Shown: positions 2,235-61,944, counted from the stretch's first letter. The stretch: 64,000 nucleotides of DNA from Callorhinchus milii (GCF_018977255.1 NW_024704778.1:248001-312000); one strand, 5' to 3'. A program made the numbers and translations. The notes: a model not told the origin generated them from the sequence alone.

Positions 2235-2339
2235 CCGCTCGCTCCAGCCGAAAGCGGAACCGGAAACCAGCCCCTTCCACCCGCGCGCGGTCACCCCGGG
2301 CAACCGGGGGAAAAGGCGCCAAAACAACCCGCCCTGGTT

Positions 2340-2390
2340 CACGCATGCGCGGTCGCGCTCCCGCGGCCTACCGCACTGCGCGTGCGCACA
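2340..2390. promoter_or_regulatory. ADSS proximal promoter with two NRF1-like motifs, in a CpG island
   Basis: acgcatgcgc (2341-2350) and ctgcgcgtgcgca (2376-2388) resemble TGCGCATGCGCA and lie about 110-150 bp upstream of the ATG. Confidence 0.55.
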
Positions 2391-2404
2391 ACCACCTCAT
2401 TGCT

Positions 2405-3497: not shown

Positions 3498-4592
3498 ACC
3501 CCCGGGGTGTGACCCCGGCGCCTGATCGCGTCGGCGAGACGTCTCGAAGCGCTCCACGGGACCGCGCTGTCGAGTGTAGTGACTGTGTGTTGCGGCGGGG
3601 AGGGGTGGGGGGGGGGTCGACGTGACCGATTTTTTTTAATTGAAGGATTTATTGCCCCCCCCCCCACCCCCCACCCCTCGGAAAATGTGCAGCTACAGGG
3701 AAATACACAGCGAGCCGGCGGGGGGAGGGCGGGGGGTGGGGAGCGGGGGTGGGGGGGGAGGCGGGGGGTGGGGGGGGGGGGTGGGGGGGGGCGGAAGGGG
3801 GGAGAGAGGGAGGGTCGGAAACCAATCCACTGGGGAGACAGATGGTGTGTCTCCCTTTGTAACGCCAGCTGTGATTTTAAGGCTCTCTCGCTCCCTCTTC
3901 CTCACCGTCGCTCTCTCTCTCTCTCTCTCTCTCGCTCACACTCTCTCTTTCACTCTCTCTTTTTCTCTCCCTCTCTCGTTCTCTCTCTCTCTCGCTCTCA
4001 GCCTCCGTAGGCATTGAACAGAGGACCCCCCCCACCCCCCCCACCACCACCACCACCAGCTGTGATTTAAAGCCGTCTCGCTTTCCCTTTCTCTGTCTCT
4101 CGCTCTCTCTCGTCCTCCCTCTCTCGCTCTCTCTCTCTCTCTCTTGCTCTTTCACGCTCCCTCTCTCCCCTCCCTCTCCCTCCCCCCCTCTCACACTCCC
4201 CCCACTCTCTCCCCCTCCCTCCCTCTCGCTCCCTCCCTCTCACACTCCCCCAACTCTCTCCCCCTCCCTCCCTCTCGCTCTCTCCCTCTCCCTCACACTC
4301 CCCCACTCTCTCCATCCCTCCCTTCCTCCCTCTCTCTTGTTCGTTCTCGGTCTTTCTTACTCTCCCTCTCTCTTTCAGCACCCACCCCACCCCCCCCCCC
4401 CACCCACCCACCCCACCACCCCCCACCCAACCACCCACCACCACCCCAACCACCATCACCACCCACCCACCACCCCAACCACCCGCCCACCACCCCCGTT
4501 GGGAGGTGGAGGACACGCGCACGCCCACGGCCCATCGCCCACGGCCCATCGCCCACGGCCCATCGCCCACGCCAAGGTTGACGTGAGCCGCC

Positions 4593-36960: not shown

Positions 36961-38819
36961 GATTCCCCGGAGAGCGAGGAACGGGATTTCAGGAGGAGGA
37001 AGGCTTGGGGTGGGGGGGGGATGGGGAATAGGGCGGAGCAGGAGGAGGGGGAGGTCACCAGCTCAGTGTCGCTCACGCTCCCCTGGGTCTCTCTCTCTGC
37101 CAGTGGTTCTGCCGCCCTCGGTGTCTTCAGTTCAGACCATCCCAGCGTCCATCCCGCAAGAGGCTCACACAGAGGTGCTATGCATTTGCTTTAGAGTAGG
37201 ACTGGAGTTGGGGGGGGGGGGGCGGGGGGGTTTGTGTGCGTAGTCCAGAGTGAGAGGTTCCAGGTCAGGGTGGGAGGCTGTGGGGAGAAAGAGAGAGACT
37301 TCATTCTCTTTTTTCCTCCCCGACATCTTTAAAGTCCGCCCCGAACAACAATGGACAATGTAAACGTAAGCCGAACAGGCTCAGATGGGGGGCGGGGGTG
37401 GGGGGGGGGGGGGGTGAGCGAGGTTTAACGTCTCACCCAAAGGACGGTGGCTCTCTCTCTCCCTCTTTCTCTCCCCAGCACTGGGCCTGTGAGAAAGGGC
37501 CTCAAAGTATCCTTTACCTCAAGGGTCAGTGGCCGGGGTTATGAGCGAAGGACAGTTGAGGCCTGGACACTGGGAGTCCTGGATAGGACGCAGCTTAACG
37601 CTGTCTCGTTGGTGGGCGATGAGAACATAAGAACTTTGTTGGCGTAAGAAGGCCGAGGTCCATCCCGTTCGACTTCCACCATCCGGCAGTCGCTCGACAC
37701 GTCGCGCCCCAAACTGTGCACCGTATCCTCTTTCCCCGGGTATTATTTCCTGACAGAAATCGATGGCATTCCCCCCCTCCCTCCGTCTCCCTCGCGGGCC
37801 GTGTGCCCTGGTTCTGCCGGTCAGTACAAGACACAACAGCTGATATCGTGGTCTCCGCAGGATTCCAGTCGCTCTGGAGTTTCAAAGACGGTGACCCTCG
37901 CGCCCCTCGGGCTTCGGGGAGGATCCTCTGATGAGGTTGAAGAGCATCGAAACATCTCATCGTCAACTCTCTTCTCCCCCAAGTTTGTTCCTCCAACTCA
38001 CTCCCTCATTCCTTTCCCCTTCTTCAACTGATGTAATTGTGTGAAAATGTATATATGGGGAGTGGGAAAGGGAGGGAGGGGGAGAGGAGGGGGGGGGAGG
38101 GGGGGGGGGAGGCGGGAGGGGAAGAGAAGGAGATAGTTTTGAAATTTCAGTGTGGACTCGGAATGATTTTAGGCACATTTCTCTCTCTCTCTCTGTAAAA
38201 ACACTTGTATAAATAGTGACTCACACACAGAATTGGGAGTCTGGTCTCCATGTCGGGTGTGAAAGTGGCTCAGAGTTGATTTCATGAAAATATGAAAGAA
38301 CTGCTATTACTTAATTACTCCGAGTAATAACGAAACGTGGCTTTTTTTTTCCCACTTATAATAATAAAAAGAAGAATCGGCCGCGGGTCTGACACACACG
38401 GACACCGGGGTCAGCGTGAGCAGCTGGAGGCTGATACTCGGCGAGGGGCAGTGGGAGAGGGACAGGGGCCCCTCAGTAAACTCACAGAGATCCCAACACA
38501 CAGGACCGAGTCCCCCAGAGACCTTGTGGGGACTATGGGACACCTCACTGATCCAGGGAGCAGCCATTGCACGATCCACGTGACCACACCAAGTACAATT
38601 AAACGTTTGTGAGAAAAACAATTTCCACGCCTGTGAAAACTTTTGACGGATTTAATTGACGCAAGGCACGAAAATACTGTTTAAATTTACACATTCCCGT
38701 GTGAAAAAGTGAGTCAGGACGCTTAATATTTAAGAGGACTGCGTCACGTTAGTGAGAATTTGCGCATCGAGTGTGACCGCTCCTTGTAAACCCTGACTTG
38801 TAAAGAGAACAACAACAAC

Positions 38820-39125
38820 AAACAGTCCTGGCATTTGATAAAGCGCCTTATCACATCTTCGAGACGTCTCAAAGCGCTTCACAGAATTTACTGTACAGTG
38901 TAGTGACTCTACAGTTTGTGGGCGAAACGCAGCAGCCAATTGCGCACAGCAGCGTCCCACACACAGTCGTGGGCTGAGTAACAAAATTATTATTTTTTTA
39001 AGGGAAAATCGATCCACCGATCGACCAACAACCGGGTTCCTACTCACTGCTGAGTAAACAGAGGTGTGTAGTGTAAGGAAACTATTTTCCCGGCTGAGGA
39101 TCAAACCCAAGGCCTCTTGCTTTCA
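38820..39125 (-). mobile_element. tRNA-Deu-L2-type SINE (antisense); duplicate at ~50675-50980
   Basis: Family tail, core and degenerate head are all present. Confidence 0.75.
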
Positions 39126-39230
39126 AGGCTCTAAATGTTGGAATTTCCTCCGAGAGGCTAAATCGGGAGCAGGGAATGGCGGGGTGTGGGGGGGTGGGGG
39201 GGAGTGGTCAGACTCCCGCTCAGTGAATAC

Positions 39231-40349
39231 CTTTGCTCTCTCACTGTTCCACTTTGCCGTTGGCGAGGTTCTGGCTGGTGGCAGGGAGGCTGGTCTCTCC
39301 TCTGGCACAGACAGGCTGCTCAGCAGAGCTCGGCGTAGGACGTGGGGGCAGGAGGGCCCGGCCGGAATATCCCCAAAACCTGCCAACACGGTGAAAATCA
39401 GCTGCCGCAAAACACACAGTCACCACACTGTACAGTCAATCCTAACTCTGTCTCCAACTCCCGCTGTCACTGACCTGGGGAGTGTGGAGGGACACACAGT
39501 GTAGAGGGAGCTTTACTGTGTGAGAGCTGTAGAGAGGAGGTGATGTGACTCACCTTTCTGCACCACGTCCGGCAGCCCATACGGCTCGTACTCCGTGTCG
39601 TCGAAGGCCACCGACAGGTGCTGTAGAAACCCCCGTCTCTGCAGTAACTTCCGGGCCAACTCTGCCGGCTCCACCTTCAGCCCCAGCTCCGTTGGCTGCA
39701 TTCTCGCTGTGTGTAATCGCACTCCCTGCTCCCCACCTGTCGCCTTCCTGCCGGTCCTTCTGCTCGTATCCTGGTCAACGACGCCTCTCGTGTGGGGGTC
39801 TCGACCTTTTGTGTGGGGGTCTTGGCCTCTCGTGTGGGGTGTCGGCCTCTCGTGTGGGGGTCCCGGCCTCTTGTGTGGGAGTCTCGACCTCTTGTGTGGG
39901 AGTCTCGACCTCTCGTGTGGGGTCTTGCCTCTCGTGTGGGGGTGTCGGCCTCTTGTGTGGGAGTCTCGACCTCTTGTGTGGAAGTCTCGACCTCTTGTGT
40001 GGGTGGTCTCGACCTCTTGTGTGGGGGTCTCGACCTCTTGTGTGGGGTCTCAACCTCTTGTGTGGGAGTCTCTACCTTTTGTGTGGGAGTCTCGACCTCT
40101 TGTGTGGGGGTCTCGACCTCTTGTGTGGGGGTCTTGGCCTCTCGTGTGGGGGTCTCGACCTCTTGTGTGGGAGTCTTGGCCTCTCGTGTGGGGGTCTCGA
40201 CCTCTTGTGTGGGAGTCTCTACCTTTTGTGTGGGAGTCTCGACCTCTTGTGTGGGTGTCTTGGCCTCTCGTGTGGGTGTCTTGGCCTCTCGTGTGGGGGT
40301 CTCGGCCTCTCGTGTGGGGGTCCCGAGAGCTTCTTGAGTCTCAGGCTCT
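39231..40349 (-). pseudogene. Duplicate 3' fragment of the CENPF-like gene (frameshifted, probably an assembly duplicate)
   Basis: Near-identical to 51095-52217. Encodes DDTEYEPYGLPDVVQKG|FGDIPAGPSCPHVLRR, has several 1-bp indels in G/C runs, and ends at an N-gap. Confidence 0.6.
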
Positions 40350-44525: not shown

Positions 44526-45490
44526 TGAGCCTGGAAAACCAGCCGGGAATAGCAACCCGTGAAGGCCTCTCCCGGCTCCGACACTGACTGACTCTCTCTC
44601 CTCCCGGGCAAAGCTTTTTTTTCTTTTTTTTTTTGCTGTTCGTATGTTTTTTCCGACACACACGGAAACCCGTCGCCGTGACCGGTCGGGTGTCTGACAC
44701 ACACACACACACGGAAACCCGTCACCGTGACCGGCCGTGTGTCTGACACACACGGAAACCCGTCACCGTGACCGGTCGGGTGTCTGACGCACACACACAC
44801 GGAAACCCGTCACCGTGACCGGCCGTGTGTCTGACACACACACACACGGAAACCCGTCACCGTGACCGGCCGTGTGTCTGACACACACGGAAACCCGTCA
44901 CCGTGACCGGCCGTGTGTCTGACACACTTAAGAGTCTCCAAACCCGACCGAGAATTCCCCACATTCCCGGCTTCACATGGAAATCCCAGAGAGGGATTGT
45001 AGGAATGGAATGCGCTCTCTCTCTCTCTCTCTCCCTGTTGCGCGCTCTCTCCCTGGAGGGCCACACAGGGAGAGAGAGAGAGAGAGAGAGAGAGAGTGAG
45101 CGCCGATGTGGGGCTGAACGTGGGAACTTCGCTGCTTCCCGGACAGCGAGTGAGGGAGTGGGTCAGAGTGACTCACTCCGAGTCAGACTCGGCTAAACTG
45201 TTACCGGTGGCAGTGGGGCTGTGTGTGTGTGTCTGTGTGTCTGTGTGTGTGGGTGTGTGTCTGTGTGTGTGTCTGTGAGACTGAGAGAGTGTCTGTGTGT
45301 ACATGAGTGTGTGCCCCCCCACCCTCTGGAACTCCATCCCACAGCCCTCGCCCCCTTCCTCCCTCCCTCCTTCCCTCCTTACACCCCTCCCTCCCTCCCT
45401 CCCTCCGTCGCCTCCTTCAAGACCCGTCTCAAGACCCTCCTCATCGACCGCGTCTCATAACCCAGGTATCTCAAGTCTGTGTGTGCGCCC

Positions 45491-45522
<32 letters not shown>

Positions 45523-47051
45523 CATGCTGTGCGTGTGCACTGTGTGTCTGTGTGTGCGCGCGCTGTGTGCGTGCGCTGTCTGTGCGTGCGCGCGCGGCGT
45601 GCGTGTGCTGGTTGCGCGTGCGCACTGTGTGTTGCGTGCGCTGTGTGTATGTGCGCTCTGTGTGCGCGCGCTGCGTGTGCGTGTGCGTGTGTGTGTGTGA
45701 GCTGTGTGTGTGTGTGCGCGCTGTGTGTGTGGGGTCGAAAGTGGGAATGGAGTGGGTGGGGTGGGGTGGGTGGGGTGGGGTGGGTGGGGGTGTTTGTGAC
45801 CCGGTGCTGTGTTCATGACTGTGAGATTGATGGGTATTACATGTGTTATTGTGTATAATACAAACCCACTGTACATAAACAATACAATACCTTTAAAAAG
45901 TGCAATTATCAAACAACAGACCAACCGCCTGTGTGTGAAGGTACATTTGTCTCACACTGACCCCATATCAGGAGGTAATATCTGTGGAGTATATTAATGA
46001 TCATTGTAATTCCCTTTGTTATTCCAGGAGACAAAACTATTTATTTTACACGGGTTCTGACCCCAAAACACACACACGGACACCTGTCACCGTGACACAC
46101 GGAAACCGCTGCGTGTCCAGCCCGGACCCCCCCCCCCCCCCGCCAGTCAGTCAGTGGGGGCTATGGCTGTGGGGTTACCAGGGGCTGAGGGGAGGATTCT
46201 CTGCCCCCAGTGACTGGTCGGCCCTTTCCAGGTCCTCCCGTGTCTGGGCCGGACCGCCACCAGCAGTGAGTGCCCGGGGACCCTCGGCCCCTCCGGGCTC
46301 GGGAACCGGGGACCCTCGGCCCCTCCGGGCTCGGGAACCGGGGACCCTCGGCCCCTCCGGGCTCGGGAACCGGGGCCCCTCCGGGCTCGGGAACCGGGGA
46401 CCCTCGGCCCCTCTGGGCTCGGGAACCGGGGCCCTCCGGGCTCGGGAACCGGGGACCCTCAGCCCCTCCGGGCTCGGGAACCGGGGGCCCTCGGCCCCTC
46501 CGGGCTCGGGAACCGGGGGCTCGAGACCCTCACAGAGGGAGGGGGCAGAGACAGAGAGAGAGAGACCGGCACAGACGGGGTGTGGGGGGGGGGGGAGGGC
46601 TGGGGCTCGATCCCCACATACAATCTGTTCGGAATGATAAGTATTTTGCTAAAATTAGTGTCCAAGAAGCTGTAGTGCGTTATACTAAAGGTCATCAGGA
46701 ACACGTGTGTGTGTCCCTGTATGTGTGTGGGTCCGTGTGCGTGTCCGTGTGTGTGTGTGTCCCTGTGTGTGTGTCCGTGTCTGTGTGTCCCAGTGTGTGT
46801 GTCCCTGTGTGTGTGTCCGTGTCTGTCCCAGTGTGTGTGTGTGTCCGTGTCTGTGTGTGTCCCTGTGTGTGTGTGTGTGTCCCTGTGTGTGTGTTTGTGT
46901 CCCTGTGTGTCCATGTGTGTGTGATCTCACCATTCAATGTTCATCGCCCACCCCCTCTTCCCCCCTTTCTCTGGGTGGTGGTGGGGGGGGGGTGGGATGT
47001 GAGATGTCTCAGTGCCACCCCCCACCCCCCCCCCACCCCACCTCTCGCCCC

Positions 47052-49310
47052 TCAGGTTGTCTCGGTGTCTGTGAGCCTCTGCGTCAGGGCCTGGGAGAAG
47101 ATGTCCATGAGGTTATGGAGCCCCAGGAGGTATCCATCCTCTCGGTTCCCCTCCTCCCAGGGAATGTCGTGCCTCAGGGTCTGGCCCTGGGGGAGGGCTG
47201 TGGTCTTCCCAAAGTCGATCAGCCAAACCTCCGGCTTCCCCAGACTCTCGTGGACAAACAGCAGCGAACTCCCGATCACCTACAGCAACAACAACAACAA
47301 CAACAACAACACTGACCACCTCTCGCGGCAGGAGGGAGAACGTTCCCAGGCCCGGGGACAGTCAGGGGCTTGGACCCGAGCCGGACAGGGGGTTGGGATC
47401 GGGAGGGGGTGGAGGGTGGGGGTAGGAGGGTGACCGAAGGCCCGGTTGGTCAGTCGAAGAGGAAGGGGGCGCTGGGAAATGCAAGTTGTCGTCGTTGGCT
47501 TCCACTTACCTCGTGCGTCTTGAAGAAGACCGACCGACCCAAAGCCTCTTCGATGGATCTCAGCTGTTCCAGGTAACCTTTCTGCGAAAGACAATCCCAA
47601 TCCCTCAGCAAACAGTCACTACACTCCATTGCTATCGGGTGAATCCCCGGGAAGCGACAGAGAGAGAGGGAGAGAGAGAGAGAGAGAGACCTCTGTGTGT
47701 GGGAGCCACTGGGCTCAGATGTAAGGATTATTGTTCTTACTAATATTTATTATTGTAATTGTCGGGGCATCGAGGGGCGGTGGGGGGCGGTGGGGGGGGG
47801 GCGAGGGGCGGGTAATTGGAGCCGAGGTACGGATCAGCCATAGAACGGCGGAACAGGCTGGAGGGGCTGAATGGCCTCGTCCTGTTGCTCTATTCCTCAG
47901 GGTCAGACCTCGAAACGCCCACCAGACACGAATAGGAACACGGTAACGTCCTCCGCCCACCCCCACCCCCCCTCCCGCTTCCCCCCTACACCCCCCAACC
48001 CCCCCCCCCCGCTCCCCACCCCCCACCCCTCGGCCTCTCGGTCTCAGCCTCACCAGAATGTCCACCTCACCCCCAGTGAACCTCAGTAACGTGGCTGTGA
48101 TCTGCTCTCGGCTCCGCGTTTGCTTAAAGTCTTTCAGGACTTTCCCATCGGCCGTCTGTAACTCAGACAATAATCACATTACAGCCCACGGTCTGAGCGG
48201 CCGATAGTGTTATTGTTATCATTGTTATTATTGTTATTATTGATGTTATTACTGTTATTATTGATGTTATTATTGATGTTATTGCTGTCATTATTGATGT
48301 TATTATTGATGTTATTACTGTCATTATTTGTCGCTATTAATGTGTTACTGACATTACGATTATTATTTTTGTTACTAATCTGTTTGTGGTGAATATCGTT
48401 ATTAATATTATAATTCCTATTGCTGTTGTTTTATTGTTATTAATGTTGTTGTTGTTGTTGTTGTTGATATCAGACGCCGGGAAACCCTTCGTCGCGGGAG
48501 GTGCCTTCACGGTTTCACGGTCTCGTCTGAGCCAACGAGGGACGGGGTCAGTGATTGGAGAGAGCGAGGGAGCGAGGGAGAGGGGAGAGGTTGAGGGAGG
48601 GGGAGGGAGAGATGAAGGGAGGGAGGGTGATGGAGGGAGAGGAGGGAGCGATGGAGGGAGAGATGGAGGGAGGGAGAGGAGAGAGATGGAGGGAGGGAGA
48701 GATGGAGGGAAGGAGGGAAGGAGAGATGGAGGGAAGGAGGGAGGGAGAGATGGAGGGAGGGTGATGGAGGGAGAGGAGAGAGATGGAGGGAAGGAGAGAT
48801 GGAGGGAAGGAGAGATGGAGGGAGGGAGAGATGGAGGGAGGGTGATGGAGGGAGAGGAGGGAGCGATGGAGGGAGAGATAGAGGGAGGGAGAGGAGAGAG
48901 ATGGAGGGAGGGAGGGAGAGATGGAAGGAGGGTGATGGAGGGAGCGATGGAGAGAGAGATGGAGGGAGGGAGAGAGATGGAGGGAGGGAGAGATGGAGGG
49001 AGGGAGGGAGAGATGGAGGGAGGGAGAGATGGAAGGAGGGTGATGGGGGGAGCGATGGAGAGAGAGATGGAGGGAGGGAGGGAGAGGAGAGAGAGATGGA
49101 GGGATGGAGCGAGAGATGGAGGGAGGGTGATGGAGGGTGGAGGGGCCTCACCGTCAGCCCCTCGATGCGGAAGGCGAGGCTGGAGGTGGAGCTCAGGGTC
49201 TCGCGCCACCTCATGTACTGCAGTTTGGTGACGGCGCCCAAACTGTGGTCCTCAGGACTCGGGGCCTCCGGGTCAACTCTCCTCATCTTCAGGTACAGGT
49301 CCTTCCGCCC
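47052..49310 (-). CDS. ITPKC: ITPKC-type IP3 3-kinase, last 4 exons (copy 2; the most 5' exon is truncated)
   Basis: Exons (-) ~49310-49152 ([52 protein letters not shown]), 48155-48054, 47581-47510, 47279-47052. Confidence 0.82.
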
Positions 49311-50606
49311 TCTTTCTCTCCCCAGCACTGGGCCTGTGAGAAAGGGCCTCAAAGTATCCTTTACCTCAAGGGTCAGTGGCCGGGGTTATGAGCGAAGGAC
49401 AGTTGAGGCCTGGACACTGGGAGTCCTGGATAGGACGCAGCTTAACGCTGTCTCGTTGGGTGGGCGATGAGAACATAAGAACTTTGTTGGCGAAAGAAGG
49501 CCGAGGTCCATCCCGTTCGACTTCCACCATCCGGGCAGTCGCTCGACACGTCGCGCCCCCAAACTGTGCACCGTATCCTCTTTCCCCGGGTATTATTTCC
49601 TGACAGAAATCGATGGCATTCCCCCCCTCCCTCCGTCTCCCTCGCGGGCCGTGTGCCCTGGTTCTGCCGGTCAGTACAAGACACAACAGCTGATATCGTG
49701 GTCTCCGCAGGATTCCAGTCGCTCTGGAGTTTCAAAGACGGTGACCCTCGCGCCCCTCGGGCTTCGGGGAGGATCCTCTGATGAGGTTGAAGAGCATCGA
49801 AACATCTCATCGTCAACTCTCTTCTCCCCCAAGTTTGTTCCTCCAACTCACTCCCTCATTCCTTTCCCCTTCTTCAACTGATGTAATTGTGTGAAAATGT
49901 ATATATGGGGAGTGGGAAAGGGAGGGAGGGGGAGAGGAGGGGGGGGGAGGGGGGGGGGGAGGCGGAGAGGGAAGAGAAGGAGATAGTTTTGAAATTTCAG
50001 TGTGGACTCGGAATGATTTTAGGCACATTTCTCTCTCTCTCTCTGTAAAAACACTTGTATAAATAGTGACTCACACACAGAATTGGGAGTCTGGTCTCCA
50101 TGTCGGGTGTGAAAGTGGCTCAGAGTTGATTTCATGAAAATATGAAAGAACTGCTATTACTTAATTACTCCGAGTAATAACGAAACGTGGCTTTTTTTTT
50201 CCCACTTATAATAATAAAAAGAAGAATCGGCCGCGGGTCTGACACACACGGACACCGGGTCAGCGTGAGCAGCTGGAGGCTGATACTCGGCGAGGGGCAG
50301 TGGGAGAGGGACAGGGGCCCCTCAGTAAACTCACAGAGATCCCAACACACAGGACCGAGTCCCCCAGAGACCTTGTGGGGACTATGGGACACCTCACTGA
50401 TCCAGGGAGCAGCCATTGGCACGATCCACGTGACCACACCAAGGTACAATTAAACGTTTGTGAGAAAAACAATTTCCACGCCTGTGAAAACTTTTGACGG
50501 ATTTAATTGACGCAAGGCACGAAAATACTGTTTAAATTTACACATTCCCGTGTGAAAAAGTGAGTCAGGACGCTTAATATTTAAGAGGACTGGTCCTGTC
50601 GTCACG

Positions 50607-53600
50607 TTAGTGAGAATTTGCGCATCGAGTGTGACCGCTCCTTGTAAACCCTGACTTGTAAAGAGAACAACAACAACAAACAGTCCTGGCATTTGATAAA
50701 GCGCCTTATCACATCTTCGAGACGTCTCAAAGCGCTTCACAGAATTTACTGTACAGTGTAGTGACTCTACAGTTTGTGGGCGAAACGCAGCAGCCAAATG
50801 AGCACAGCAGCGTCCCACACACAGTCGTGGGCTGAGTAACAAAATTATTATTTTTTTAAGGGAAAATCGATCCACCGATCGACCAACAACCGGGTTCCTA
50901 CTCACTGCTGAGTAAACAGAGGTGTGTCGTGTAAGGAAACTATTTTCCCGGCTGAGGATCAAACCCAAGGCCTCTTGCTTCCAAGGCTCTAAGTGTTGGA
51001 ATTTCCTCCGAGAGGCTAAATCGGGAGCAGGGAATGGCGGGTGTGTGGGGTGGGGGTGGGGGGGGGAGTGGTCAGACTCCCGCTCAGTGAATACCTTTGC
51101 TCTCTCACTGTTCCACTTTGCCGTTGGCGAGGTTCTGGCTGGTGGGCAGGGAGGCTGGTCTCTCCTCTGGCACAGACAGGCTGCTCAGCAGAGCTCGGCG
51201 TAGGACGTGGGGGCAGGAGGGCCCGGCCGGAATATCCCCAAAACCTGCCAACACGGTGAAAATCAGCTGCCGCAAAACACACAGTCACCACACTGTACAG
51301 TCAATCCTAACTCTGTCTCCAACTCCCGCTGTCACTGACCTGGGGAGTGTGGAGGGACACACAGTGTAGAGGGAGCTTTACTGTGTGAGAGCTGTAGAGA
51401 GGAGGTGATGTGACTCACCTTTCTGCACCACGTCCGGCAGCCCATACGGCTCGTACTCCGTGTCGTCGAAGGCCACCGACAGGTGCTGTAGAAACCCCCG
51501 TCTCTGCAGTAACTTCCGGGCCAACTCTGCCGGCTCCACCTTCAGCCCCAGCTCCGTTGGCTGCATTCTCGCTGTGTGTAATCGCACTCCCTGCTCCCCC
51601 ACCTGTCGCCTTCCTGCCGGTCCTTCTGCTCGTATCCTGGTCAACGACGCCTCTCGTGTGGGGGTCTCGACCTTTTGTGTGGGGGTCTTGGCCTCTCGTG
51701 TGGGGGTGTCGGCCTCTCGTGTGGGGGTCCCGGCCTCTTGTGTGGGAGTCTCGACCTCTTGTGTGGGAGTCTCGACCTCTCGTGTGGGGGTCTTGTCCTC
51801 TCGTGTGGGGGTGTCGGCCTCTTGTGTGGGAGTCTCGACCTCTTGTGTGGAAGTCTCGACCTCTTGTGTGGGGGTCTCGACCTCTCGTGTGGGGGTCTCG
51901 ACCTCTTGTGTGGGGGTCTCGACCTCTTGTGTGGGGGTCTCGACCTCTTGTGTGGGAGTCTCGACCTCTTGTGTGGGAGTCTCGACCTCTTGTGTGGGGG
52001 TCTTGGCCTCGTGTGTGGGGGTATCGGCCTCTCGTGTGGGGGTCTCGACCTCTTGTGTGGGGGTCTCGACCTCTTGTGTGGGAGTCTCTACCTTTTGTGT
52101 GGGAGTCTCGACCTCTTGTGTGGGTGTCTTGGCCTCTCGTGTGGGGGTCCCGGCCTCTTGTGTGGGGGTCTCGGCCTCTCGTGTGGGGGTCCCGAGAGCT
52201 TCTTGAGTCTCAGGCTCTCGTGTGGGGGACCGGGCCGCCTCCCGCTCTCCAGGGGGATCTACTACGTATGGCCAGTTGCTCTCAGACTGATTGCTGGCTC
52301 CGCTCTCCTCCTCCACCACGATAAGCCCGGTGCCATCCGCAGCCTTTAGACACTCAGTGAATTTACGTCTCACGCTCCCCGGCTCCTCCGTCCCCTGCCC
52401 TTCCTTTAACCTCAGCTCCTCCGCTAACCTCGCGCTCTCCCGGCCACGAGGGTGCGAGATAGAGACAGATGATTCCAGCTCTGCTTCCTCCACCTCCTCC
52501 CCTCGAAAGCTCAGAGCCCACCTGGCCTCGGAATCACCGACCTCTCGCCGTGAAGTACCGACCGTGCTGCTGTTGTGCCTGTGCTGCCCTGAGACACTGC
52601 CAATGTCTCCCTCAAGTCTGTCTGTGCCTTTGGCCACTAACATATAATGGAACACTTCCTCACGGGATCCACGCGGAGCTGCTTGCTCAACTCCGGAGGC
52701 TCCATTGAGCGATCTTGTCCCAGCGCTGACCGTGTGTCAGGACCTTCCCTCTCGCCTTCGTTGTGTTCCCAAATCACCTCCGAGTCGCTCTGCAGCCAGG
52801 ATATGGCCTTCAGGGCTTGGTTTAGCCTCTTGCAGAGGTCGGCTATGGTGCGGTCCTTCCCCTCAACACTGAGCAGCAGGTCCTCCATGTTTTGAGTTTG
52901 GACCTCCAAGGCCGCCGTCAGCTGCTGTATCTCCCTGTGGAGCATGGCCTGGAGTTCCTGCAGCGTGCGCTGGGCCTCGCTGTGCCTTTGCTCTGCCCGC
53001 TCCTTCTCCCTGGTCAGATCCTCACACCTCTTCTCCAGCTCCAGCAGCCGTGCATGCAGCTGGGACCTCTCCAGGTCTCCGTCTGGCGGGCCATCTCCAC
53101 TTGCTCCCTTCTCCATCAGCCGGGCTCTCCTCTCCCCTGAGTCCTGTCCCAACTCCGCCTCCAGCCGGCTTTGCTGCTCGCCCTCCAGCTCACCATTATC
53201 CTTCAGAACCTCCGCTTCCCCCTCAGGTACTGCAGCCCCGCCCACGCTGCAGCCACGCCTGCTGCAGCCTCAGTGAAGGAAGGCACAGCAATGACTCCAC
53301 AAACTGCTCCATTCTCCAGCGGTTGAGCTGCTGCTGGGCTGCCCTCTCTGGCCTCCTGGGCTTGATGGTCGCCGCACTGTGAGGGCAGGACCCCCTGTGA
53401 GGAGACCACCACATGTGGGTCTGACTGGCTGGCCTCCTGCTGGCTCAGGCTGGACGGGCAGGACAGCAGCTGTGGGCCTGGGTTGACAGAGAGACCTTCC
53501 CGCTGCACATTAATCTCTCGCTGAAGAGCCTCGACTTTGACCGATAGAGACAGGTTTTCCCCTAAAAGAGAATATCACAACCTCAGCTCCAATAATAATA

Positions 53601-55936
53601 ACAATGATAATCCTGGCATTTGATACAGCCCCTTATCACATCTTCGAGACGTCTCAAAACGCTTCACAGGATACACTGTAAAATGTAGTGAATGTGTTTT
53701 GTGGGCGAAACGCGGCAGCCAATTGCGCACAGCGACGTCCCACAAACAGTCGTGGATTGAGTGACCACATTATTATTTTTTTTTGAAGGAAGATCTTGAA
53801 AGACCGCCCTGAACAGAGCACTGCGCTGGAACATTATAATCACTGTGAGCTCAAAGTCCTGAACGTACAATACAGAGAGAAAGGTAACGGGAACTATTGT
53901 TATGTTGAAGAAAAGCATTGCCTACCCCTCATCTCCTCCCTGGATGTCTGACTCCAGGTGAGATCCTGTTCCATACGTGTCAGCTGTGCCTCGAGTTGCA
54001 GGAGGCGCTGTGTGCTCTGTCCCTGACATGTGCTGTTCTTCTCCAGTGTAAGCTAACATACAGATAGACAGGATTACACAGCAAACTGTACAGCGAACAG
54101 CCATTCACCCAACTAGCCTGTGCCATACTACACACAATACCCCACTCCTAAACCCTTCTCCTATACCCTCCCAAATACCCCTCTATTCCTCTGTAGGAGG
54201 AGGCAAGTTTTCACATGCACACACAAACAAACAGCAACAACAAAATTACCTCTCTCCCCCAATAGGCTGTGAATTATGGCTGGATCCATTCACATTGTCC
54301 AGACTGAGAAGGAAAGATGTTTGTAGGTCAGGGTATTAAGGATAATTCAAAGGCGCGTAATTCAAGTTGAGGTACAGGTCAGCCATGATCTTGTCGAATG
54401 GTGGAACAGGCTCGAGGGGCTGAATGGCCTCCTATTCCTACGTTTCTACAATTGGTCTCAAGTAGGGATGGAGGTGAAGTGCCAGAGGGCACCAAGATAC
54501 GAGTCCCCCTTGCTGACAGAGAATGGTACCCGGTGACTCCCCCACAATAGAGGGGTGAGCAATGCTTTCCTTCAACATAACTCTTACCTGCTTTTCTCTC
54601 TGCAGATCGGCTTCTCTCTTTTGATAGGCTGCGAGTTCCCCCACCGCCCAGTCAACCTTTTCTTCCAGTTCCTGCAGCTCCCTGTCCACCAGCTGTTTCT
54701 GTGCTGTCACCTTCACAATAATAATAATAATAATAATCTTAACATTTGATACTGCGCCTTATCATGTCGTCGAGACGTCTCAAAGCGCTTCACAGGATAC
54801 ACTGATAAAGTGTAGTGACTGCTTATTTTGTGGGCGAAATGCGGCAGCCATTTGCACACGGCAGCGTCCCCACACATAGTCGTGGATTGAGTGACCAAGT
54901 TATTATTTATTTTGAGGGGATTATTGCCCCCGGAAAGCAATCTGCCTATCAACTAACAAGCGGATTCCTACTTACTGTTCGGTAAACCGAGGTGTGTGTG
55001 TGTGTGTGGAGTAAGGAAACTTTCCTAACGTTTCGCCCTGACCCTGACCAGCCGGGAATCGAACCCGGAATCTCACTCCCAATAACACAGGGCACCGTAA
55101 CTCCTAACGAGAGAGTGAAGGCTTTGGAAACAGTACGTTAGATAGCAGCAGCCTGTGTTACCTTATCCACCGTGGCTTGTAGCTCGAGGTGCTCTCTCTG
55201 CAGCTGCTGTATCTGGTGTGAAGCTGTGCTCTGAGCTTCCCTGCTCTCCTGCTCCAGCATCTGGTACCCAGACTGCTGCTCGGCTAGCTCCTGTAGCTCC
55301 TGAAACCAGGTCACAATCCCGCTGTCCCATCAACAACAACAACTTGCATTTACACAGAGACCCTCACCCAGGGCAGCGTCCCAGAGTGCTTGACAGTGGC
55401 GGATTCGGACACCGAGCCAGGGGGAGGCTTTAGGCGCAACCTGAAGATGGGAAAGCAAGGGGCAAGGTGGAGGGAGGGATAGAGGGAGAGTGTTCTAGCG
55501 TTTCGGGGCATAGTGGGTGGCATGGCCGCCGATGGTGGAGCGGAGGGCACGAGGGACAAGTTCAATGACCTGTTCAATGAACAGGATTGTCCTGCCTGTG
55601 TGTGATGGAGAGTCGACACCAGGAACGGCTTCCCAGCCTCGAAAGACTTTGTGAAACAGGAATAAAAATGTTCTGGAGAGAAGACAGCAGCTCAGCTCGG
55701 AGACGTTACCCGGGGCAGGGTGGGCCTTCACCTGCTGGTGTTCCCTCTCCCGCTGTCTCAGTCTCTGCTCCGCTGAATGCCGGGCGCTTTCTGCGTTCTG
55801 CCTCAGACACCCCAGCTCTGCCGTCACCTGCTTCAGCCTCTGCTCCAGTCCCGCACACTGCAGGTAAAGCACACACCCACAGGCTCCCTCAGTCACAGGA
55901 TCCCCCACATGCACACGCACATATACACACACACGC

Positions 55937-55967
<31 letters not shown>

Positions 55968-58764
55968 TGCCACAACTATTTCACTCTCACAGTGTCACGC
56001 CCTGACACACACAGTCACACACACACACATACAGACACACACAGACCTTGGTGTTGGCGAGCTCCTGTCCCTGGTTAGCTCTGCTCAGGAGTTGTTGACC
56101 GTGGTTCAGGGTTTGCTGTTTTGCTGCCAGCTGTGCCTCGCTCATCTCCAGCCGCGACTGCAGCTCCTGCAACCTGTTGTCGTGGATTTTGATTTCTTTT
56201 TCCTGAGACTGAACCCAAATTTCCAACTCGGTCACTGTGCTTCTCAGCACTGTGCGACACAGGTTGATACCAGGGGCGCAGAGAGAGTGGAGAGAGAATG
56301 CTGGAAAGTTAATATTAATAATCCCTGCATTTGATATAGCGCCTTATCATTTGTGGGCGAACGCGGCAGCCAATGCGCACAGCAATGTCCCACAAACAGT
56401 CGTGGATTGAAAATGACCAATTTTTTTTTTTTTTTTTTTTTTTTATTATTAGGCGTGTGGAGTAAGAAAACTTGCCCAAGGTTTCGCCCTGCCTGTAATT
56501 ATGTTTCATTGCAAGCGATCTAACCACTGACTAAGGACTCCACAGTGTCTCATCTATATTGTAAAGTGTAGCGACTGCGTGTTTTGTGGGCAAACGCGGC
56601 AGCCAATTGGGGCAAGACGGAGGGATAGAGGAAGAGCGTTCCAGAGATTTGGGGCGAAGTGGCGGAAAGCGCGGCCAGCAATGGTGGAACGGGGGGCCAG
56701 AGGTACATGCAGAAGGCCGGAGCCAGTTGCCACACAACTATGAAGTGCCTTACGATGTTTGAAGCTGGAGCTCTTACCCCTATTTTCCTCTCTCAGTCCA
56801 TCCACCTGTGGGCTGCTGCTCTCCTCGGCCCAGCTGAGGTGGGGGTGGGTGGGGTCAGGAGTGAGCGGTCTGCAGGGGGGCTGTTGTGTCGCTCGCTCCT
56901 CCCAGGGCAACACAGACAAGGGGGCTCCCCGACCAGCTGGGGTGCTGGGGGGCTGGTGATCGGGGTTCTGCCAGGGACAGTTAGTCGGGCTGCTCTGTGC
57001 TCTGTTATCCTCTCGTCCATGGCTTCTGTGGCTGAGCTCCAGCGGCTGAACCTGAGGCCAAAGAACATTCAAATAACACCCACTGCTCTCCTGCTGCTTA
57101 AGATGGGTTTAACGTCTCATCTGAAGGAGCACAGCCCCCGCCCCCCCACCCACCCTCCCAGGACACTGGGAGAGAGTGAGAGGAACTCCCTTCCCTTATC
57201 GTGTTGTTCTCGCCCCAGTGTGACCGCTCACCTGTAGCCTCAGAGTGTTGACTTCGGTCCCCAGCCTCTGTCTCTCCTCTGCCTCCCTCTGATATTTCCT
57301 CTGCAGATCCTCCCATTGGGCGCCTTCAACCAAGGAAAGTGTGCAAAGAAATTATTTTTACACTTGCCCTGAGTCTGGAAAATGCCTATCACCCACCCAG
57401 ATGGCCTCGTGTTACTGAGCTCATCAGTTGACAAGAAGGAACTTGAATGTTTATAGCTCCTCGTACAACAACAACTCGCATTTATGTTGCGCCCTTCACG
57501 TGGGGTAGTGTCCCGGAGCGCTTGACAGTGGCAGAGTCTGACACCGAGTCAGGGGGGAGAGGGGCCACGTAGTGACATTTTGTGTCAAATGCAACAGCCA
57601 GCAATAGTAATAATCCTTCCATTTGAACCTTAGGCGAGGGGGGGTTTCACTTGATGCCCCTCATTGCGACGAGGCTAAAGGATTATCCATGTGTTGGGAC
57701 AGTATTTGCTGGTTTGATCACTTACCCTGGTTGTCTCTGGGACAAGGTGAGGAGGTGTTGGACAGACCGGGATAGAGCTGGGAGGCTGAGGGTGAGGGCA
57801 GTGGGCTCCTGAGGTTCCGCTCAAGCTCTGTTTCTAACCTGCGGAAAAGTGATAAAAAGATGTGGTGGAAAAGGAGAGATCGTCATAGGTGTGGAGTGCC
57901 TGTAGCGTAGTGGTTAGAGCTCTTGCCTTGCGAGCGAGGGTTTCTGCGAGTATTAAGCTTGAGTGCATTCGAGGTTTGAGAGAGAAAGAGAGAAAGAGCA
58001 GGGTGGGGGGAGAGAGATGGGGGTGGGGGGAGAGAGATGGGGTGGGGGGAGAGAGAGAGAGAGAGGTACCTCTTTAATTCATGCTCCAGGTTGTCTGTTC
58101 GCTTCCTGGCAGCTACCAGCTGGCCCTCCAGGCTGCACACCAGAGCCTCCTTCACCTGTAGTTCCTGACACAGCCTCTGCCGGCTCCTCTCCCCCTGGCT
58201 GGCCTCGTCCCTCAGGCTCTGTGCCTCTCTCCTCAGGCTCGCGTGCTCGTGCCTCTCATCCTCCAGCTTAAAACAACACAAGAGATGTGAGGTCTACGTG
58301 CCAGCCAACCTTACCCCAAACGCAGCCGAAACCCGTCCATGCATTTGTGATCTCCCGCCTCGACGACTCGCTGGTCTCCCCAACACCTCCCTACCCCTCC
58401 GACATGCTTACTCCCCAACCCACCACCCGCCGCCTCCGCTCGGCTGGCTCCGGCCTCCCGCTTGGCCCTCGTGCTCTCCGCTCCGCCACGGGTGGCCACA
58501 CTTTCAGCTCTGGAACTCTCTTCCCTGATCTCTCCGCCATCCCTATCTTCAGTCCGTGCCAGTTCCCACTCTCTGGCCCCCCGCCCCTCCCACGGCGATC
58601 ACCTTCTGCTGCTGCTTGTGGAAGGTGGATTCCATAGCGTCCAGCTGCAGTTGCCTCTGTTGCCTCTCTCGCCCCAGTTTCTCCAACTGCCTCTCACACT
58701 CTGTCACCTTCCTCAGAGCTTGGCTGGACAGTTCGCCCTTCCACTCCTCCAGGGGCCAACTCAT
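50607..58764 (-). CDS. Short centromere protein F-like coiled-coil protein (CENP-F N-terminal domain plus C-terminal Rb-binding-type motif), about 1,300 aa, two frameshifts in the large exon
   Basis: Exons (-): 58764-58603, 58266-58070, 57838-57726, 57323-57232, 57051-56778, 56249-56047, 55857-55732, 55299-55162, 54710-54588, 54052-53926, 53561-51419, 51244-51095, and tentatively 50654-50607. MSWPLEEWKGELSSQALRKVTECERQLEKLGRERQQRQLQLDAMES, ELQVKE, CLRQNAESAR and TEYEPYGLPDVVQKGFGDIP...PHVLRR match CENP-F motifs as recalled. Confidence 0.85.
51648..52225 (-). repeat. Coding 21-bp tandem repeat (VETPTQE / AETPTRE), about 27 units
   Basis: Plus-strand unit gtctcgacctcttgtgtggga, in frame within ORF 51378..52655. 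Confidence 0.9.
54716..55078 (-). mobile_element. tRNA-Deu-L2-type SINE, near full length
   Basis: B-box gggttcgattccc on the minus strand at ~55053-55065, with core and (att)n tail. Confidence 0.8.
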
Positions 58765-59230: not shown

Positions 59231-60222
59231 AATACCCCAGGCACAGGTGGGGCTTACCAGGCAATTCAGCCTATCGAGCCCATGCTCCACCACTTCATCG
59301 CAGTACTTTCCACCTGCATCAGCTTGGCTCCATCTCTGGCACACTCTATTCTAGGTCAGAAGGTGGGGACTTGAGTTCATAGTCCAGTGCTGCTTCAAAT
59401 GCCTTCATGGCCTGGCATCGCCGTACATCACTGACCTGCTTACTCCCCACTCCACTGCCCACTACCTCGACTGGCTCTGGCCTCCTGCTTGTCCCTTGTA
59501 CCCGCTGTTGCACCAGCAGCGGCCACACTTTTAGCCACTACACCCGAAACCCTGGAACACTCTCCCCCAGTCCCTCCGCTTTTCTCCTTCCTTCCCCATC
59601 TTCAGACCTTCCTCTTCGACAGTGCCTATGCTCACCTCCCCCTGGCTTGGCATCATGCTCTGCCACTGACAAGTGATCTGGAAAGCCTCCCTGTGTGAGG
59701 AGCGCTATATAAATCCAAGTTGTTATTGTTTAATGGTCAGATAAGTGCTTTCCTTACACGAGCACTTGTTGAGGTCCCAAACGTTTGCTCAATTGATTTT
59801 GCAACACTATTGGTAAAATGATACTTTCGTTGAGGCTGATCTCTGGGAATATCCAAGGCTCTGGGAAGATCCCATTCTCTAGATGGTCCCAGTCCATGGA
59901 CTAGTCTCCAGGGATAATCACAGTTTCTCCAGAAGAATTTAGATGATCCGAGTCCCTCAATCACTATCTCAGACGTTTCCAATCCCCGGCTAGTTACTCG
60001 GCTAGTCTCTGGAATGATCTCAATCTATCAATCAAAATGTGGAATAATTCCAGTCTCTCAGCCAGAATCTGGGAAAATCTAGACTCTCAGCCAGAATCTG
60101 GGATGATCCCAGGCTCTTGGTTGGAATCTGGGATGATCCCACTCTCCAAGGCCAGAATCTGAGATCATCCCAGCCTGGGGATGATTGCAGCAGGGGAATT
60201 ATCCCTCAGTCCCTTAATGCCA

Positions 60223-61494
60223 CTAATCCTGGTTTCTTGGAATATCCTGGCTTCTTGGATTGTCCTGGTTTCCAAGCTGTTCTGTAGCATGTTCCTGGGC
60301 TCCAAAACAGATGGGATTGTCACTGGCAAAATCCCAGTCACTTGGCCAGTCACTGGCAAAATCCCAATTCCTGGGCCAGTCTCTGGCAAAATCACAGTCC
60401 CATTCCCTATCTGTGGGACGATCCTTGTCCTTGTCTTTGGGAGGATTACTGTCACTGGCCACAGCACAATCCAGATCCTTGTCCATGGGAGGATCCTTGT
60501 CTTTGAAACGGTCGCACTCTCTGTCTTTGGTGCGATGAGGGTCTTTGGAACGATCAGAGTGTCTGTCTTTGAGACGATCGCATTCCTTGCCTTTGGTACG
60601 ATCAAAGTGTCTGTCCTTGGGACGATTAGATTCCTTGTCTTTGGGATGATCAGGGTCTTTGGGATGATCCGGGTCCTTGTCTTTGGGATGATCCGAGTCC
60701 CTGTCTTTGGGATGATCCGAGTCCCTGTCTTTGGGATGATCCGAGTCCCTGTCTTTGGGATGATCCGAGTCCCTGTCTTTGGGATGATCCGAGTCCCTGT
60801 CTTTGGGATGATCCGAGTCCCTGTCTTTGGGATGATCCGAGTCCCTGTCTTTGGGATGATCCGAGTCCCTGTCTTTGGGATGATCCGAGTCCCTGTCTGT
60901 GGGATGATTCGAGTCCCTGTCTTTGGGATGATCCGAGTCCCTGTCTTTGGGATGATCCGAGTCCCTGTCTTTGGGATGATCCGAGTCCCTGTCTTTGGGA
61001 TGATCCTGGTCTCTGTCTTTGGGATGATCCTGGTCCCTGTCTTTGGGATGATCCGAGTCCCTGTCTTTGGGATGATCCTGGTCTCTGTCTTTGGGATGAT
61101 CCTGGTCCCTGTCTTTGGGATGATCCGAGTCCCTGGGCTGGTCATTGAACTGATCCCAGTAGCTGGAATGGTTTCCATCCCTGATCGATTTTCTGGAATG
61201 ATCCCATCTTCTGGGCTGGTCTCTGTGCTGATCTCTGGGATAATCAACGTGTCTTGGCTGGTCACTGGGCTGGGCTCTGGAATAATCCCAGTCTCTGTGC
61301 TGGTCTCTGGGATAATCACGGTCTCTGTGCTGGTCTCTGGGATAATCCCAGTCTCTGTGCTGGTCTCTGGGATAATTAACGTGTCTTCGCTGGTCACTGG
61401 GCTGGGCTCTGGAATAATCCCGGTCTCTATGGTGGTCTCTGGGATAATCACGGTCTCTGCGCTGGCCTCTAGTATTCTCTCTCTCTCTCTCCCT
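60223..61494 (-). CDS. Putative 423-codon Asp/Arg/His-rich repeat exon (RDRDYPRDQH..., (DHPKDRDS)n), function unknown
   Basis: Stop-free minus frame 61494-60226 (TAG at 60225-60223), codon-for-codon antisense to the + ORF 60181..61524. The ORF track reports only its last 87 aa. Splice acceptors precede 61518 and 61494. Confidence 0.4.
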   Translation of the reverse strand, partial: RERERENTRGQRRDRDYPRDHHRDRDYSRAQPSDQRRHVNYPRDQHRDWDYPRDQHRDRDYPRDQHRDWDYSRAQPSDQPRHVDYPRDQHRDQPRRWDHSRKSIRDGNHSSYWDQFNDQPRDSDHPKDRDQDHPKDRDQDHPKDRDSDHPKDRDQDHPKDRDQDHPKDRDSDHPKDRDSDHPKDRDSDHPKDRDSNHPTDRDSDHPKDRDSDHPKDRDSDHPKDRDSDHPKDRDSDHPKDRDSDHPKDRDSDHPKDRDSDHPKDRDSDHPKDKDPDHPKDPDHPKDKESNRPKDRHFDRTKGKECDRLKDRHSDRSKDPHRTKDRECDRFKDKDPPMDKDLDCAVASDSNPPKDKDKDRPTDREWDCDFARDWPRNWDFASDWPSDWDFASDNPICFGAQEHATEQLGNQDNPRSQDIPRNQD

Positions 61495-61944
61495 CTGTCA
61501 GTCTCCTTCGCTGCTCGACTTTAGAAAAGGAAAAGGGTCGGACGCCGGGGACGGACGGACGCGCGCGCACGCACACGCGTGCAGCGGGACAGGCAAGTGA
61601 ATGCTCAGCGTCGGTGTTACCAGCAGCTTCTCGGTATGTTGAACGAGCCCCGGGGCACTGAGGAGCCACTGGCCTCACCGCTGGGCCTCTGACACCCTCC
61701 CCAGCTGCAGCCCGAGAACCTCGGAGCGGACTTAAAGCAACTTATAGGAACCCTCTTACCTTCAGCATTGAGATTGGGATTCCCCTGTTCACCGCCGTCT
61801 GCTCACCCTCACACTGAGTGGCTCTGTACGGTCCGGATAGACGCCTCCGTGTAGTCTGATAATAACTGTGACACCTTCACGGGTTAACGTGTGTGTGTGT
61901 GTGTGTGTCAGACGCCCGGCCGGTCACGGTGACGGGTTTCCGGG

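What the first reader, a model, noticed from the sequence alone, without database searches (positions are those of the whole stretch)
50607..58764. Miniature CENP-F paralogue: N-terminal domain and C-terminal motif kept, most of the coiled coil missing, no evident CAAX box
Seen: 10 small exons follow the CENP-F N-terminus, then one 2.1-kb exon leads straight to EYEPYGLPDVVQKG|FGDIP; total about 1,300 codons. The best terminal exon ends SGFTRSGHTRCANSH*, with Cys at -5. Known: human CENP-F is about 3,100 aa, single-copy, farnesylated at CKVQ, and lies on 1q41 in the ITPKB/COQ8A/HNRNPU/ADSS2 region. Inference: a copy beside ITPKC/COQ8B/ATG2A/HNRNPUL2 is a whole-genome-duplication ohnologue lost in mammals, possibly with a different, non-farnesylated role.
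Basis: partly seen in the sequence, partly recalled or inferred. Interest (0 to 1): 0.7.

Follow-up and report, generated by a model that had tools for sequence, protein, structure and literature searches.

The report
Ancient short CENP-F twin, mitochondria-type
This elephant-shark gene is a spliced, shortened second copy of the cell-division protein CENP-F, shared by sharks, bony fishes, amphibians, turtles and lizards, which kept the motif that in human CENP-F binds the mitochondrial protein Miro but has no lipid-anchor tail and no detectable chromosome-targeting region, so it likely tethers mitochondria to microtubules.

Summary
Mostly confirmed, with two corrections. The gene is real: 12 coding exons, about 1,279 codons, Pfam CENP-F_N and CENP-F_C_Rb_bdg. 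A database labels it Callorhinchus milii 'centromere protein F-like'. Correction 1: the 2.1-kb exon is not open as assembled. Two 1-nt deletions break it, and an older public model reads through both. Correction 2: the proposed last exon is not supported. RNA-like contigs read through a stop inside the FGDIP exon, so the protein ends ...KVEQ with no CAAX. An N-terminal tree puts the gene in a second CENP-F clade (100/99) that follows the species tree from holocephalans to amphibians; turtle and lizard members fall in it too. Mustelus and Chelonia carry both copies, and orthology to canonical shark CENP-F is rejected. The clade keeps the residues that human CENP-F uses to bind Miro (28 of 28). 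It lacks the Nde1-binding repeats, an intact kinetochore-targeting core, the basic cluster before the motif, the C-terminal tail and CAAX (40 of 41). Likely function: a non-farnesylated link between Miro and microtubules (inferred, untested). Genome-duplication origin is likely. Loss in mammals and a canonical copy in this genome were not tested directly. No paper on this paralogue was found in ten searches.

The parts
58603..58764 (-). Coding exon 1 (ATG; start of CENP-F_N)
   Evidence: 100% match to P0001
58070..58266 (-). Coding exon 2 (CENP-F_N)
57726..57838 (-). Coding exon 3
   Evidence: present in P0001/P0003
57232..57323 (-). Coding exon 4
56778..57051 (-). Coding exon 5
56047..56249 (-). 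Coding exon 6 (coiled-coil-like)
55732..55857 (-). Coding exon 7
55162..55299 (-). Coding exon 8
54588..54710 (-). Coding exon 9
53926..54052 (-). Coding exon 10
51419..53561 (-). Large coding exon 11, 2,143 nt as assembled, with two 1-nt deletions (near 53,244 and 52,672) that are likely assembly errors
52784..53074 (-). Internal helical block shared with shark and ray orthologues (about 42% identity)
51650..52195 (-). Coding minisatellite, 21-nt unit x 26 (TPTQEVE-like), lying where shark orthologues have a coiled-coil-like segment
51419..51554 (-). Clade-specific conserved block and first half of the Miro/Rb-binding motif
51245..51418 (-). 174-nt GT-AG intron, spliced in contigs of runs X3 and X4
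51095..51244 (-). Last coding exon: F (51,242), D, C-P, VLR of the Miro motif; stop TGA 51,107-51,105; donor after 51,095 to an unplaced non-coding exon
50607..50654 (-).
37461..40349 (-). 98% duplicate holding a second, indel-rich copy of the gene's 3' end, ending at a 25-N gap; likely a false (haplotype) duplication

Best explanation
This is an expressed member of a second, jawed-vertebrate-wide CENP-F lineage (here 'CENP-F B') that likely arose in a vertebrate genome duplication and likely works as a non-farnesylated adaptor linking Miro on mitochondria to microtubules rather than as a kinetochore protein. Shown: exon structure, splicing and stop position in contigs of two RNA-like runs, clade membership, which regions are kept and which are undetectable, invariant Miro-motif residues, no CAAX. 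Inferred: (1) the C-terminal motif docks its Phe into Miro's ELF pocket, with the Asp salt bridge and the V/I-L/V-R strand, as reported for human CENP-F; (2) the conserved N-terminal region still binds microtubules; (3) with no intact kinetochore core, Nde1-binding repeats, basic import-signal-like cluster or CAAX, the protein would be cytoplasmic and not loaded on kinetochores; (4) the invariant Ser-to-Cys change would remove a mitotic-kinase-type Ser-Pro site from the Miro motif.
For: Tree on the N-terminal 520 aa only: B is one clade, 100/99, in species-tree order (holocephalan, ray, sharks; amphibians; bichir, sturgeon, teleosts), and A is separate (27 rows). The 66-row quick tree gives the same split, with 26 of 26 rows labelled B by their C-terminal motif on one side, including turtle and lizard rows. 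AU test against orthology to canonical shark CENP-F: log-likelihood 125 lower, p 3e-116. Both copies in one species: Mustelus 3,300 and 1,737/1,778 aa; Chelonia mydas 2,942 and 536 aa. G2988, F2989, D2991 and R3003 equivalents in 28 of 28 B rows, at the human spacing (residues from PMC6428352 and PMC10897228). The 38-aa motif block is 74-87% identical between the window and 13 other B rows, against 47-68% for the first 120 aa. Profile of human region 2792-2887: window 3 bits, held-out shark A 89-98 in 6 of 6. Region 2122-2297: all B 14 or less, held-out A 131-142. Pfam CENP-F_leu_zip in 0 of 6 B and 2 of 2 A proteins scanned. Cys at -4 in 1 of 41 B rows and 119 of 124 A rows. K[KR]x[KR] cluster before the motif in 27 of 27 A and 1 of 24 B rows (pattern chosen after seeing the alignment). 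Ser at 2998 in 27 of 27 A rows, Cys in 28 of 28 B rows.
Against: No binding, localisation or expression-pattern data exist here. The same motif is also the reported Rb-binding motif. Shark B proteins keep a weak match to the kinetochore core at the right position (19-22 bits; rays 8-9; bony vertebrates 5 or less), so the loss is graded. The region profiles also fail on all 7 outgroup rows, so they cannot see very diverged domains. The C-tail profile is a weak control (16-31 bits in 5 of 6 held-out A, 0 in one). The N-terminus evolves much faster in B than in A (branch lengths), so microtubule binding may be lost. One turtle B row ends in C-x-x-x and one fish B row is 3,766 aa. Lamprey placement is unresolved. 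The two spliced runs come from one study and their RNA status is a guess by the tool. The assembly is error-prone and locally misjoined.
Confidence: 0.6

Rival explanations
1. Same ancient paralogue, but it works as a Miro-anchored scaffold or competitor for the ELF pocket with no microtubule role; the N-terminal region serves only to dimerise.
For: The Miro block is far better conserved than the N-terminus. Reptile members are 536-924 aa and match CENP-F_N only over about 130-147 profile positions in the two scanned. [quoted passage not shown]
Against: CENP-F_N, the region at the microtubule-binding N-terminus, is kept in all 6 B proteins scanned, with similar K+R content in the first 130 aa (18-25 in B, 24-26 in A).
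Confidence: 0.2
2. It is a partly redundant mitotic CENP-F (kinetochore or Rb-related role) whose targeting sequences have diverged beyond detection.
For: Remnant kinetochore-core match in shark B rows (19-22 bits). The kept motif is also the Pfam Rb-binding domain. Farnesylation is reported to have only mild or no effect on kinetochore localisation in recent studies (PMC6428352).
Against: In the window protein the corresponding stretch is a Thr/Pro-rich minisatellite. No leucine-zipper repeats. The basic cluster is absent. The cited paper could not detect Rb binding to CENP-F by two-hybrid.
Confidence: 0.13
3. The lineage arose by a local (tandem or segmental) duplication in the jawed-vertebrate stem rather than by whole-genome duplication. 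This concerns origin only and is compatible with any of the functions.
For: Neighbouring ITPK and COQ8 exons score slightly closer to ITPKB (summed 175 vs 165 bits for C over three exons) and COQ8A (192-200 vs 188 for B over two exons), the paralogues recalled to lie on human 1q with CENPF.
Against: The differences are small. The same pattern is expected if the segment is the sister ohnologue of 1q41-44 (pairing of 1q41-44 with 11q12-13 is recalled, not tested). Several neighbour families appear to be duplicated together.
Confidence: 0.15
4. The window gene is a pseudogene, or the only CENPF with its middle lost in assembly.
For: Two frameshifts as assembled; the current database model stops at 637 aa. 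The neighbouring ITPK/COQ8 block is misjoined. No Callorhinchus canonical CENP-F among the 120 listed of 448 hits.
Against: The older model reads through both breaks. The duplicated blocks differ by 22 and 20 gap openings in 4.0 and 2.9 kb. The transcript is spliced. The layout is collinear with shark and ray orthologues. The AU test rejects orthology to A.
Confidence: 0.04

Closest known systems
Canonical vertebrate CENP-F (mitosin/LEK1; Pfam PF10481 + PF10473 + PF10490)
   Same: CENP-F_N region (about 35% identity over the first 545 aa to shark and human-like A), Miro/Rb motif with the key residues, intron inside the G|F of the motif.
   Different: About 1,280 aa against a median of 3,079; no PF10473 repeats, no detectable kinetochore core, no basic cluster before the motif, 44-aa tail instead of 73-147, no CAAX, Cys for Ser at 2998; own conserved block before the motif.
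Database 'centromere protein F-like' / 'uncharacterized' proteins of sharks, rays, bichir, sturgeon, electric eel, caecilian, axolotl, turtles and alligator lizard
   Same: These are its orthologues, so the gene is already in databases under automatic names.
   Different: The names do not separate them from canonical CENP-F; one is labelled 'early endosome antigen 1-like'. The window copy is shorter than shark and ray orthologues (1,720-1,778 aa) and has a minisatellite in place of their last helical segment.
Miro ELF-pocket clients (CENPF, TRAK1/2, MYO19, MTFR1/2/1L; PMC10897228)
   Same: Carries the F-x-D-I motif and the downstream three-residue strand at the CENPF spacing.
   Different: Binding not tested; no motor domain; long coiled-coil-like body.

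Membership tests
CENP-F family (broad) | CENP-F_N domain PF10481 | tested here: met
   (64.1 and 67.3 bits, cut-off 37.7)
CENP-F family (broad) | C-terminal Rb/Miro motif PF10490 | tested here: met
   (both halves above 21 bits)
Canonical CENP-F orthologue | Groups with canonical CENP-F of sharks | tested here: not met
Canonical CENP-F orthologue | Leucine-zipper repeats PF10473 / Nde1-binding region | tested here: not met
Canonical CENP-F orthologue | Kinetochore-targeting core (human 2792-2887) | tested here: not met
   3 bits in the window protein, 89-98 in held-out shark A; weak remnant (19-22) in shark B
Canonical CENP-F orthologue | C-terminal CAAX box | tested here: not met
CENP-F B clade (this report) | N-terminal tree placement, EP[YC]GLP and C-P in the motif, tail of 33-46 aa | tested here: met
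Miro ELF-pocket client | Phe/Leu anchor, Asp at +2, strand at +12 to +14 | tested here: met
   against PMC10897228
Miro ELF-pocket client | Direct binding to Miro | not testable with these tools
2R ohnologue | Duplication older than the cartilaginous/bony fish split | tested here: met
   both copies in Mustelus and Chelonia
2R ohnologue | Neighbours are ohnologues of the genes flanking canonical CENPF on another chromosome | tested here: inconclusive
   families confirmed; paralogue identity unresolved
2R ohnologue | Canonical copy present elsewhere in this genome | not testable with these tools
   no genome held; not among 120 listed of 448 hits

The most novel reading that the evidence does not exclude
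Non-mammalian jawed vertebrates carry an unrecognised, dedicated Miro client: a genome-duplication twin of CENP-F that shed its mitotic targeting modules, swapped a kinase site in the Miro motif for an invariant cysteine, gained its own conserved block beside it, and couples mitochondria to microtubules outside mitosis. It would be a natural separation-of-function allele of CENP-F, kept since the origin of jawed vertebrates and lost in mammals.
Probability: 0.4. Interest if true: 0.7.

Novelty: new variant of a known kind. Interest (0 to 1): 0.52.

Why it matters
CENP-F's many roles are hard to separate, and the physiological purpose of its mitochondrial pool is stated to be unknown; Miro-binding mutant mice develop normally (PMC6428352). 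A paralogue that kept this motif under the strongest constraint while losing the kinetochore, Nde1 and farnesyl modules gives a ready test of what the CENP-F-Miro link is for. It could be studied in a fish or amphibian by finding where it is expressed and knocking it out. It also warns that fish and amphibian CENPF models may have a hidden partial back-up, and that databases mix the two genes under one name. The current elephant-shark model (637 aa) is truncated by a likely assembly error.

Tried and rejected
No genome is held, so no search for a canonical copy in this species. A small tree to see whether unnamed canonical row P0060 could be a holocephalan copy was uninformative. No solved structure matches a B protein or the last exon. 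A single-sequence fold of P0003 was submitted and had not finished at the last poll; nothing rests on it. No complex prediction was run, since no Miro sequence was among the session's results. A scan for C-x-x-x-stop frames downstream of the motif found three in the main copy and two in the duplicate, none joined to the gene. Donors at 51,117 and 51,109 were considered and rejected because the contigs read through them. tblastn of three canonical proteins against the whole window found only N-terminal exons, so no missing-middle exons lie in the window. Classifying the short fragments showed B-like pieces resembling the fish, shark or reptile-type groups only, but they are unnamed, so this is no test of loss in mammals or birds. 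No listed run is on record as RNA. Run X9 covered only 51,471-51,645 of the gene. Five look-ups in earlier findings returned nothing. An Atlas search with a COQ8 exon did not separate paralogues. Two zebrafish clone names were recalled and used as search terms: one appeared once, in a G2/M marker list, the other not at all; which CENP-F lineage either belongs to was not established.

Full report
Observation. On the minus strand, ten GT-AG exons run from ATG 58,764 to 53,926 and are open for 518 codons. They are followed by a 2,143-nt exon (53,561-51,419), a 174-nt intron and the FGDIP exon. Pfam finds CENP-F_N in exons 1-2 and CENP-F_C_Rb_bdg in two halves across the last intron, all above the curated cut-offs; none of the 12 pieces scanned matched the CENP-F leucine-zipper family. 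Exon 1 matches one database protein exactly, 'centromere protein F-like [Callorhinchus milii]', 637 aa.

Frameshifts. The large exon is not open as assembled: the first stop falls at codon 638, where the 637-aa model ends. Two single-base deletions, near 53,244 and 52,672, restore the phase. An older public model of the same gene (P0003, 1,009 aa) reads through both and is 99.2% identical over 965 aa without gaps to my model, which has X at the breaks and is 1,279 aa long. The assembly is noisy here. Positions 29.2-40.3 kb repeat 42.5-52.2 kb at 95-99%, bounded by 25-N gaps, and the two longest blocks differ by 22 and 20 gap openings in 4.0 and 2.9 kb. The breaks are therefore likely errors. 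A 21-nt coding minisatellite of 26 copies lies at 51,650-52,195.

C-terminus. I laid 4 of the 24 listed runs on 49,990-51,645. Contigs of X3 and X4 (one study; RNA status is the tool's guess) skip the 174-nt intron with canonical ends; a contig of X1 runs unspliced from the exon into that intron. Both spliced contigs match without a difference through TGA 51,107-51,105 and leave the stretch at 51,094/51,095, a GT donor 10 nt after the stop. The protein therefore ends ...KVEQ, 44 residues after the motif Phe, the same length as shark orthologues (43-46). About 3.0 and 1.2 kb of those contigs are unplaced, likely a non-coding last exon (not tested). The laid stretch left out the minisatellite and exons 1-10, so read support for the link between the two halves is not shown; it rests on the assembly, on P0003 reaching the repeat, and on collinearity with orthologues.

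Relatives. A search of the 50%-identity library gave 197 hits, 150 listed. The long ones fall into two types. Type A ends in C-x-x-Q 110-147 residues after the motif; type B ends 33-46 residues after it. A tree built only from the N-terminal 520 aa put all 26 rows labelled B by their C-terminal motif on one side (SH-aLRT 99; 66 rows, quick method) together with the window gene. Named B rows are Mustelus, Mobula, Hemitrygon, Erpetoichthys, Acipenser, Electrophorus, Rhinatrema, Ambystoma, Chelonia, Platysternon and Elgaria. A careful tree of 27 chosen rows (long-branched reptile B rows left out) gives B 100/99 in species-tree order and A 88/86, with lamprey unresolved. Forcing the window gene in with canonical shark CENP-F costs 125 log-likelihood units (p-AU 3e-116). 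Mustelus asterias and Chelonia mydas each have both an A and a B protein. The duplication thus predates the split of cartilaginous and bony fishes. No B row was named as a mammal or bird, but most rows are unnamed, so loss in mammals is consistent with the data and untested.

What was kept and lost. Profiles were built from 28 canonical proteins (no chondrichthyans), in windows along a human-like reference whose numbering matches the papers (P0259). The window protein scores on human 1-450 (57-138 bits), weakly on 451-600 (17) and on the Miro region 2977-3020 (41). On the kinetochore core 2792-2887 it scores 3, against 89-98 for 6 of 6 held-out shark A; shark B rows keep 19-22 bits at the right position, rays 8-9, bony vertebrates 5 or less. 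On 2122-2297 (bounds recalled; PMC7199848 places most Nde1 binding in 1882-2292) all 27 B rows score 14 or less, against 131-142. The 7 outgroup rows fail these profiles too, so very diverged domains would be missed. In the window protein, however, the place of the core is taken by the minisatellite. Pfam PF10473 hits 0 of 6 B and 2 of 2 A proteins scanned. Cys at -4 occurs in 1 of 41 B rows and 119 of 124 A rows. These counts include isoforms, and one canonical isoform mis-binned as B was removed. Most B rows are 1,300-2,200 aa (range 536-3,766).

The motif. PMC6428352 (part 1 of 7 and passages read) maps Miro binding to 2977-3020, with G2988 and F2989 essential. PMC10897228 (parts 1-2 of 8) adds a D2991 salt bridge and an ILR 3001-3003 strand. 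G, F, D and R are present in 28 of 28 B rows at the same spacing; one of 28 A rows was dropped because it has Leu for Phe. This 38-aa block is the best conserved part compared: 74-87% identity to the window in 13 B rows, against 47-68% for the first 120 aa. B-specific features are an invariant Cys where 27 of 27 A rows have the Ser of a Ser-Pro pair, and a conserved block upstream of the motif. In A that position holds a basic cluster (27 of 27 A, 1 of 24 B; post hoc pattern). PMC12086802 (passages) says CENP-F has a bipartite import signal; that it is this cluster is recalled, not checked.

Mechanism. Canonical CENP-F binds microtubules at both ends, Bub1 through the core, Nde1 through the repeats and Miro through the motif (PMC7199848, passages; PMC6428352). 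B keeps the N-terminal region and the Miro motif only. The most likely reading (0.6) is a cytoplasmic, non-farnesylated adaptor that ties Miro-bearing mitochondria to microtubules. Every functional step is inferred from homology. The rivals are a Miro scaffold with no microtubule role (0.2), a hidden mitotic role (0.13) and a pseudogene or artefact (0.04). On origin, local duplication (0.15) remains possible.

Neighbours. Pfam and PDB confirm an adenylosuccinate synthetase, an hnRNP U-family gene (SAP, SPRY, AAA_33), ATG2, COQ8 and an inositol-trisphosphate kinase. By recall, human 1q41-44 and 11q12-13 are a duplicated pair, and this mix would fit the 11q-type sister segment; this was not tested.

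Novelty. The proteins exist in databases under automatic names. Ten paper searches (listings seen, five papers opened in part, no supplements read) found no description of a second CENP-F lineage. The library lacks most subscription journals, and genome-wide ohnologue tables in supplements may list the pair. Verdict: a real, ancient, apparently uncharacterised variant with a clean separation-of-function layout; new variant of a known kind; interest 0.52.

Noticed in passing
window 29,228-40,349 vs 42,526-52,218: Near-identical tandem block (95-99%) holding ATG2 3' exons, ITPK 3' exons and the 3' end of the CENP-F-like gene, bounded by 25-N gaps; likely a false duplication.
   Followed up: partly
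window 34,986-37,461 vs 48,272-49,308: The two copies have different middles: COQ8 3' exons (plus strand) in one, a single ITPK exon and a GGGA repeat in the other. Both seem to lack the 5' parts of these genes, so the block is probably misjoined.
   Followed up: partly
window 33,800-37,000 and 47,050-49,310: The ITPK and COQ8 genes score slightly closer to ITPKB and COQ8A than to ITPKC and COQ8B; they may be further retained ohnologues without a human counterpart.
   Followed up: partly
window 51,095 onward (minus): Spliced contigs leave at a donor 10 nt after the stop, with 1.2-3.0 kb unplaced; possibly the old CAAX-coding last exon turned into 3' UTR, or an overlap with the COQ8 3' UTR on the other strand.
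   Followed up: no
window 60,165-61,520 (minus): 451-aa open frame with 24-nt and 30-nt repeats, also open on the plus strand (453 aa); weak Cornifin match below cut-off, no convincing Atlas hit.
   Followed up: partly
window 1,257-26,630: ADSS exon 1 and an hnRNP U-family gene (Pfam); TMEM179-like, TMEM223-like and TTC9-like exons recognised by eye (recalled, not tested).
   Followed up: partly
proteins P0094, P0062, P0257: A turtle B protein ends in C-x-x-x while its Chelonia orthologue has Gly there; one fish B protein is 3,766 aa; Heterodontus canonical CENP-F has Leu in place of the Miro-anchoring Phe.
   Followed up: no
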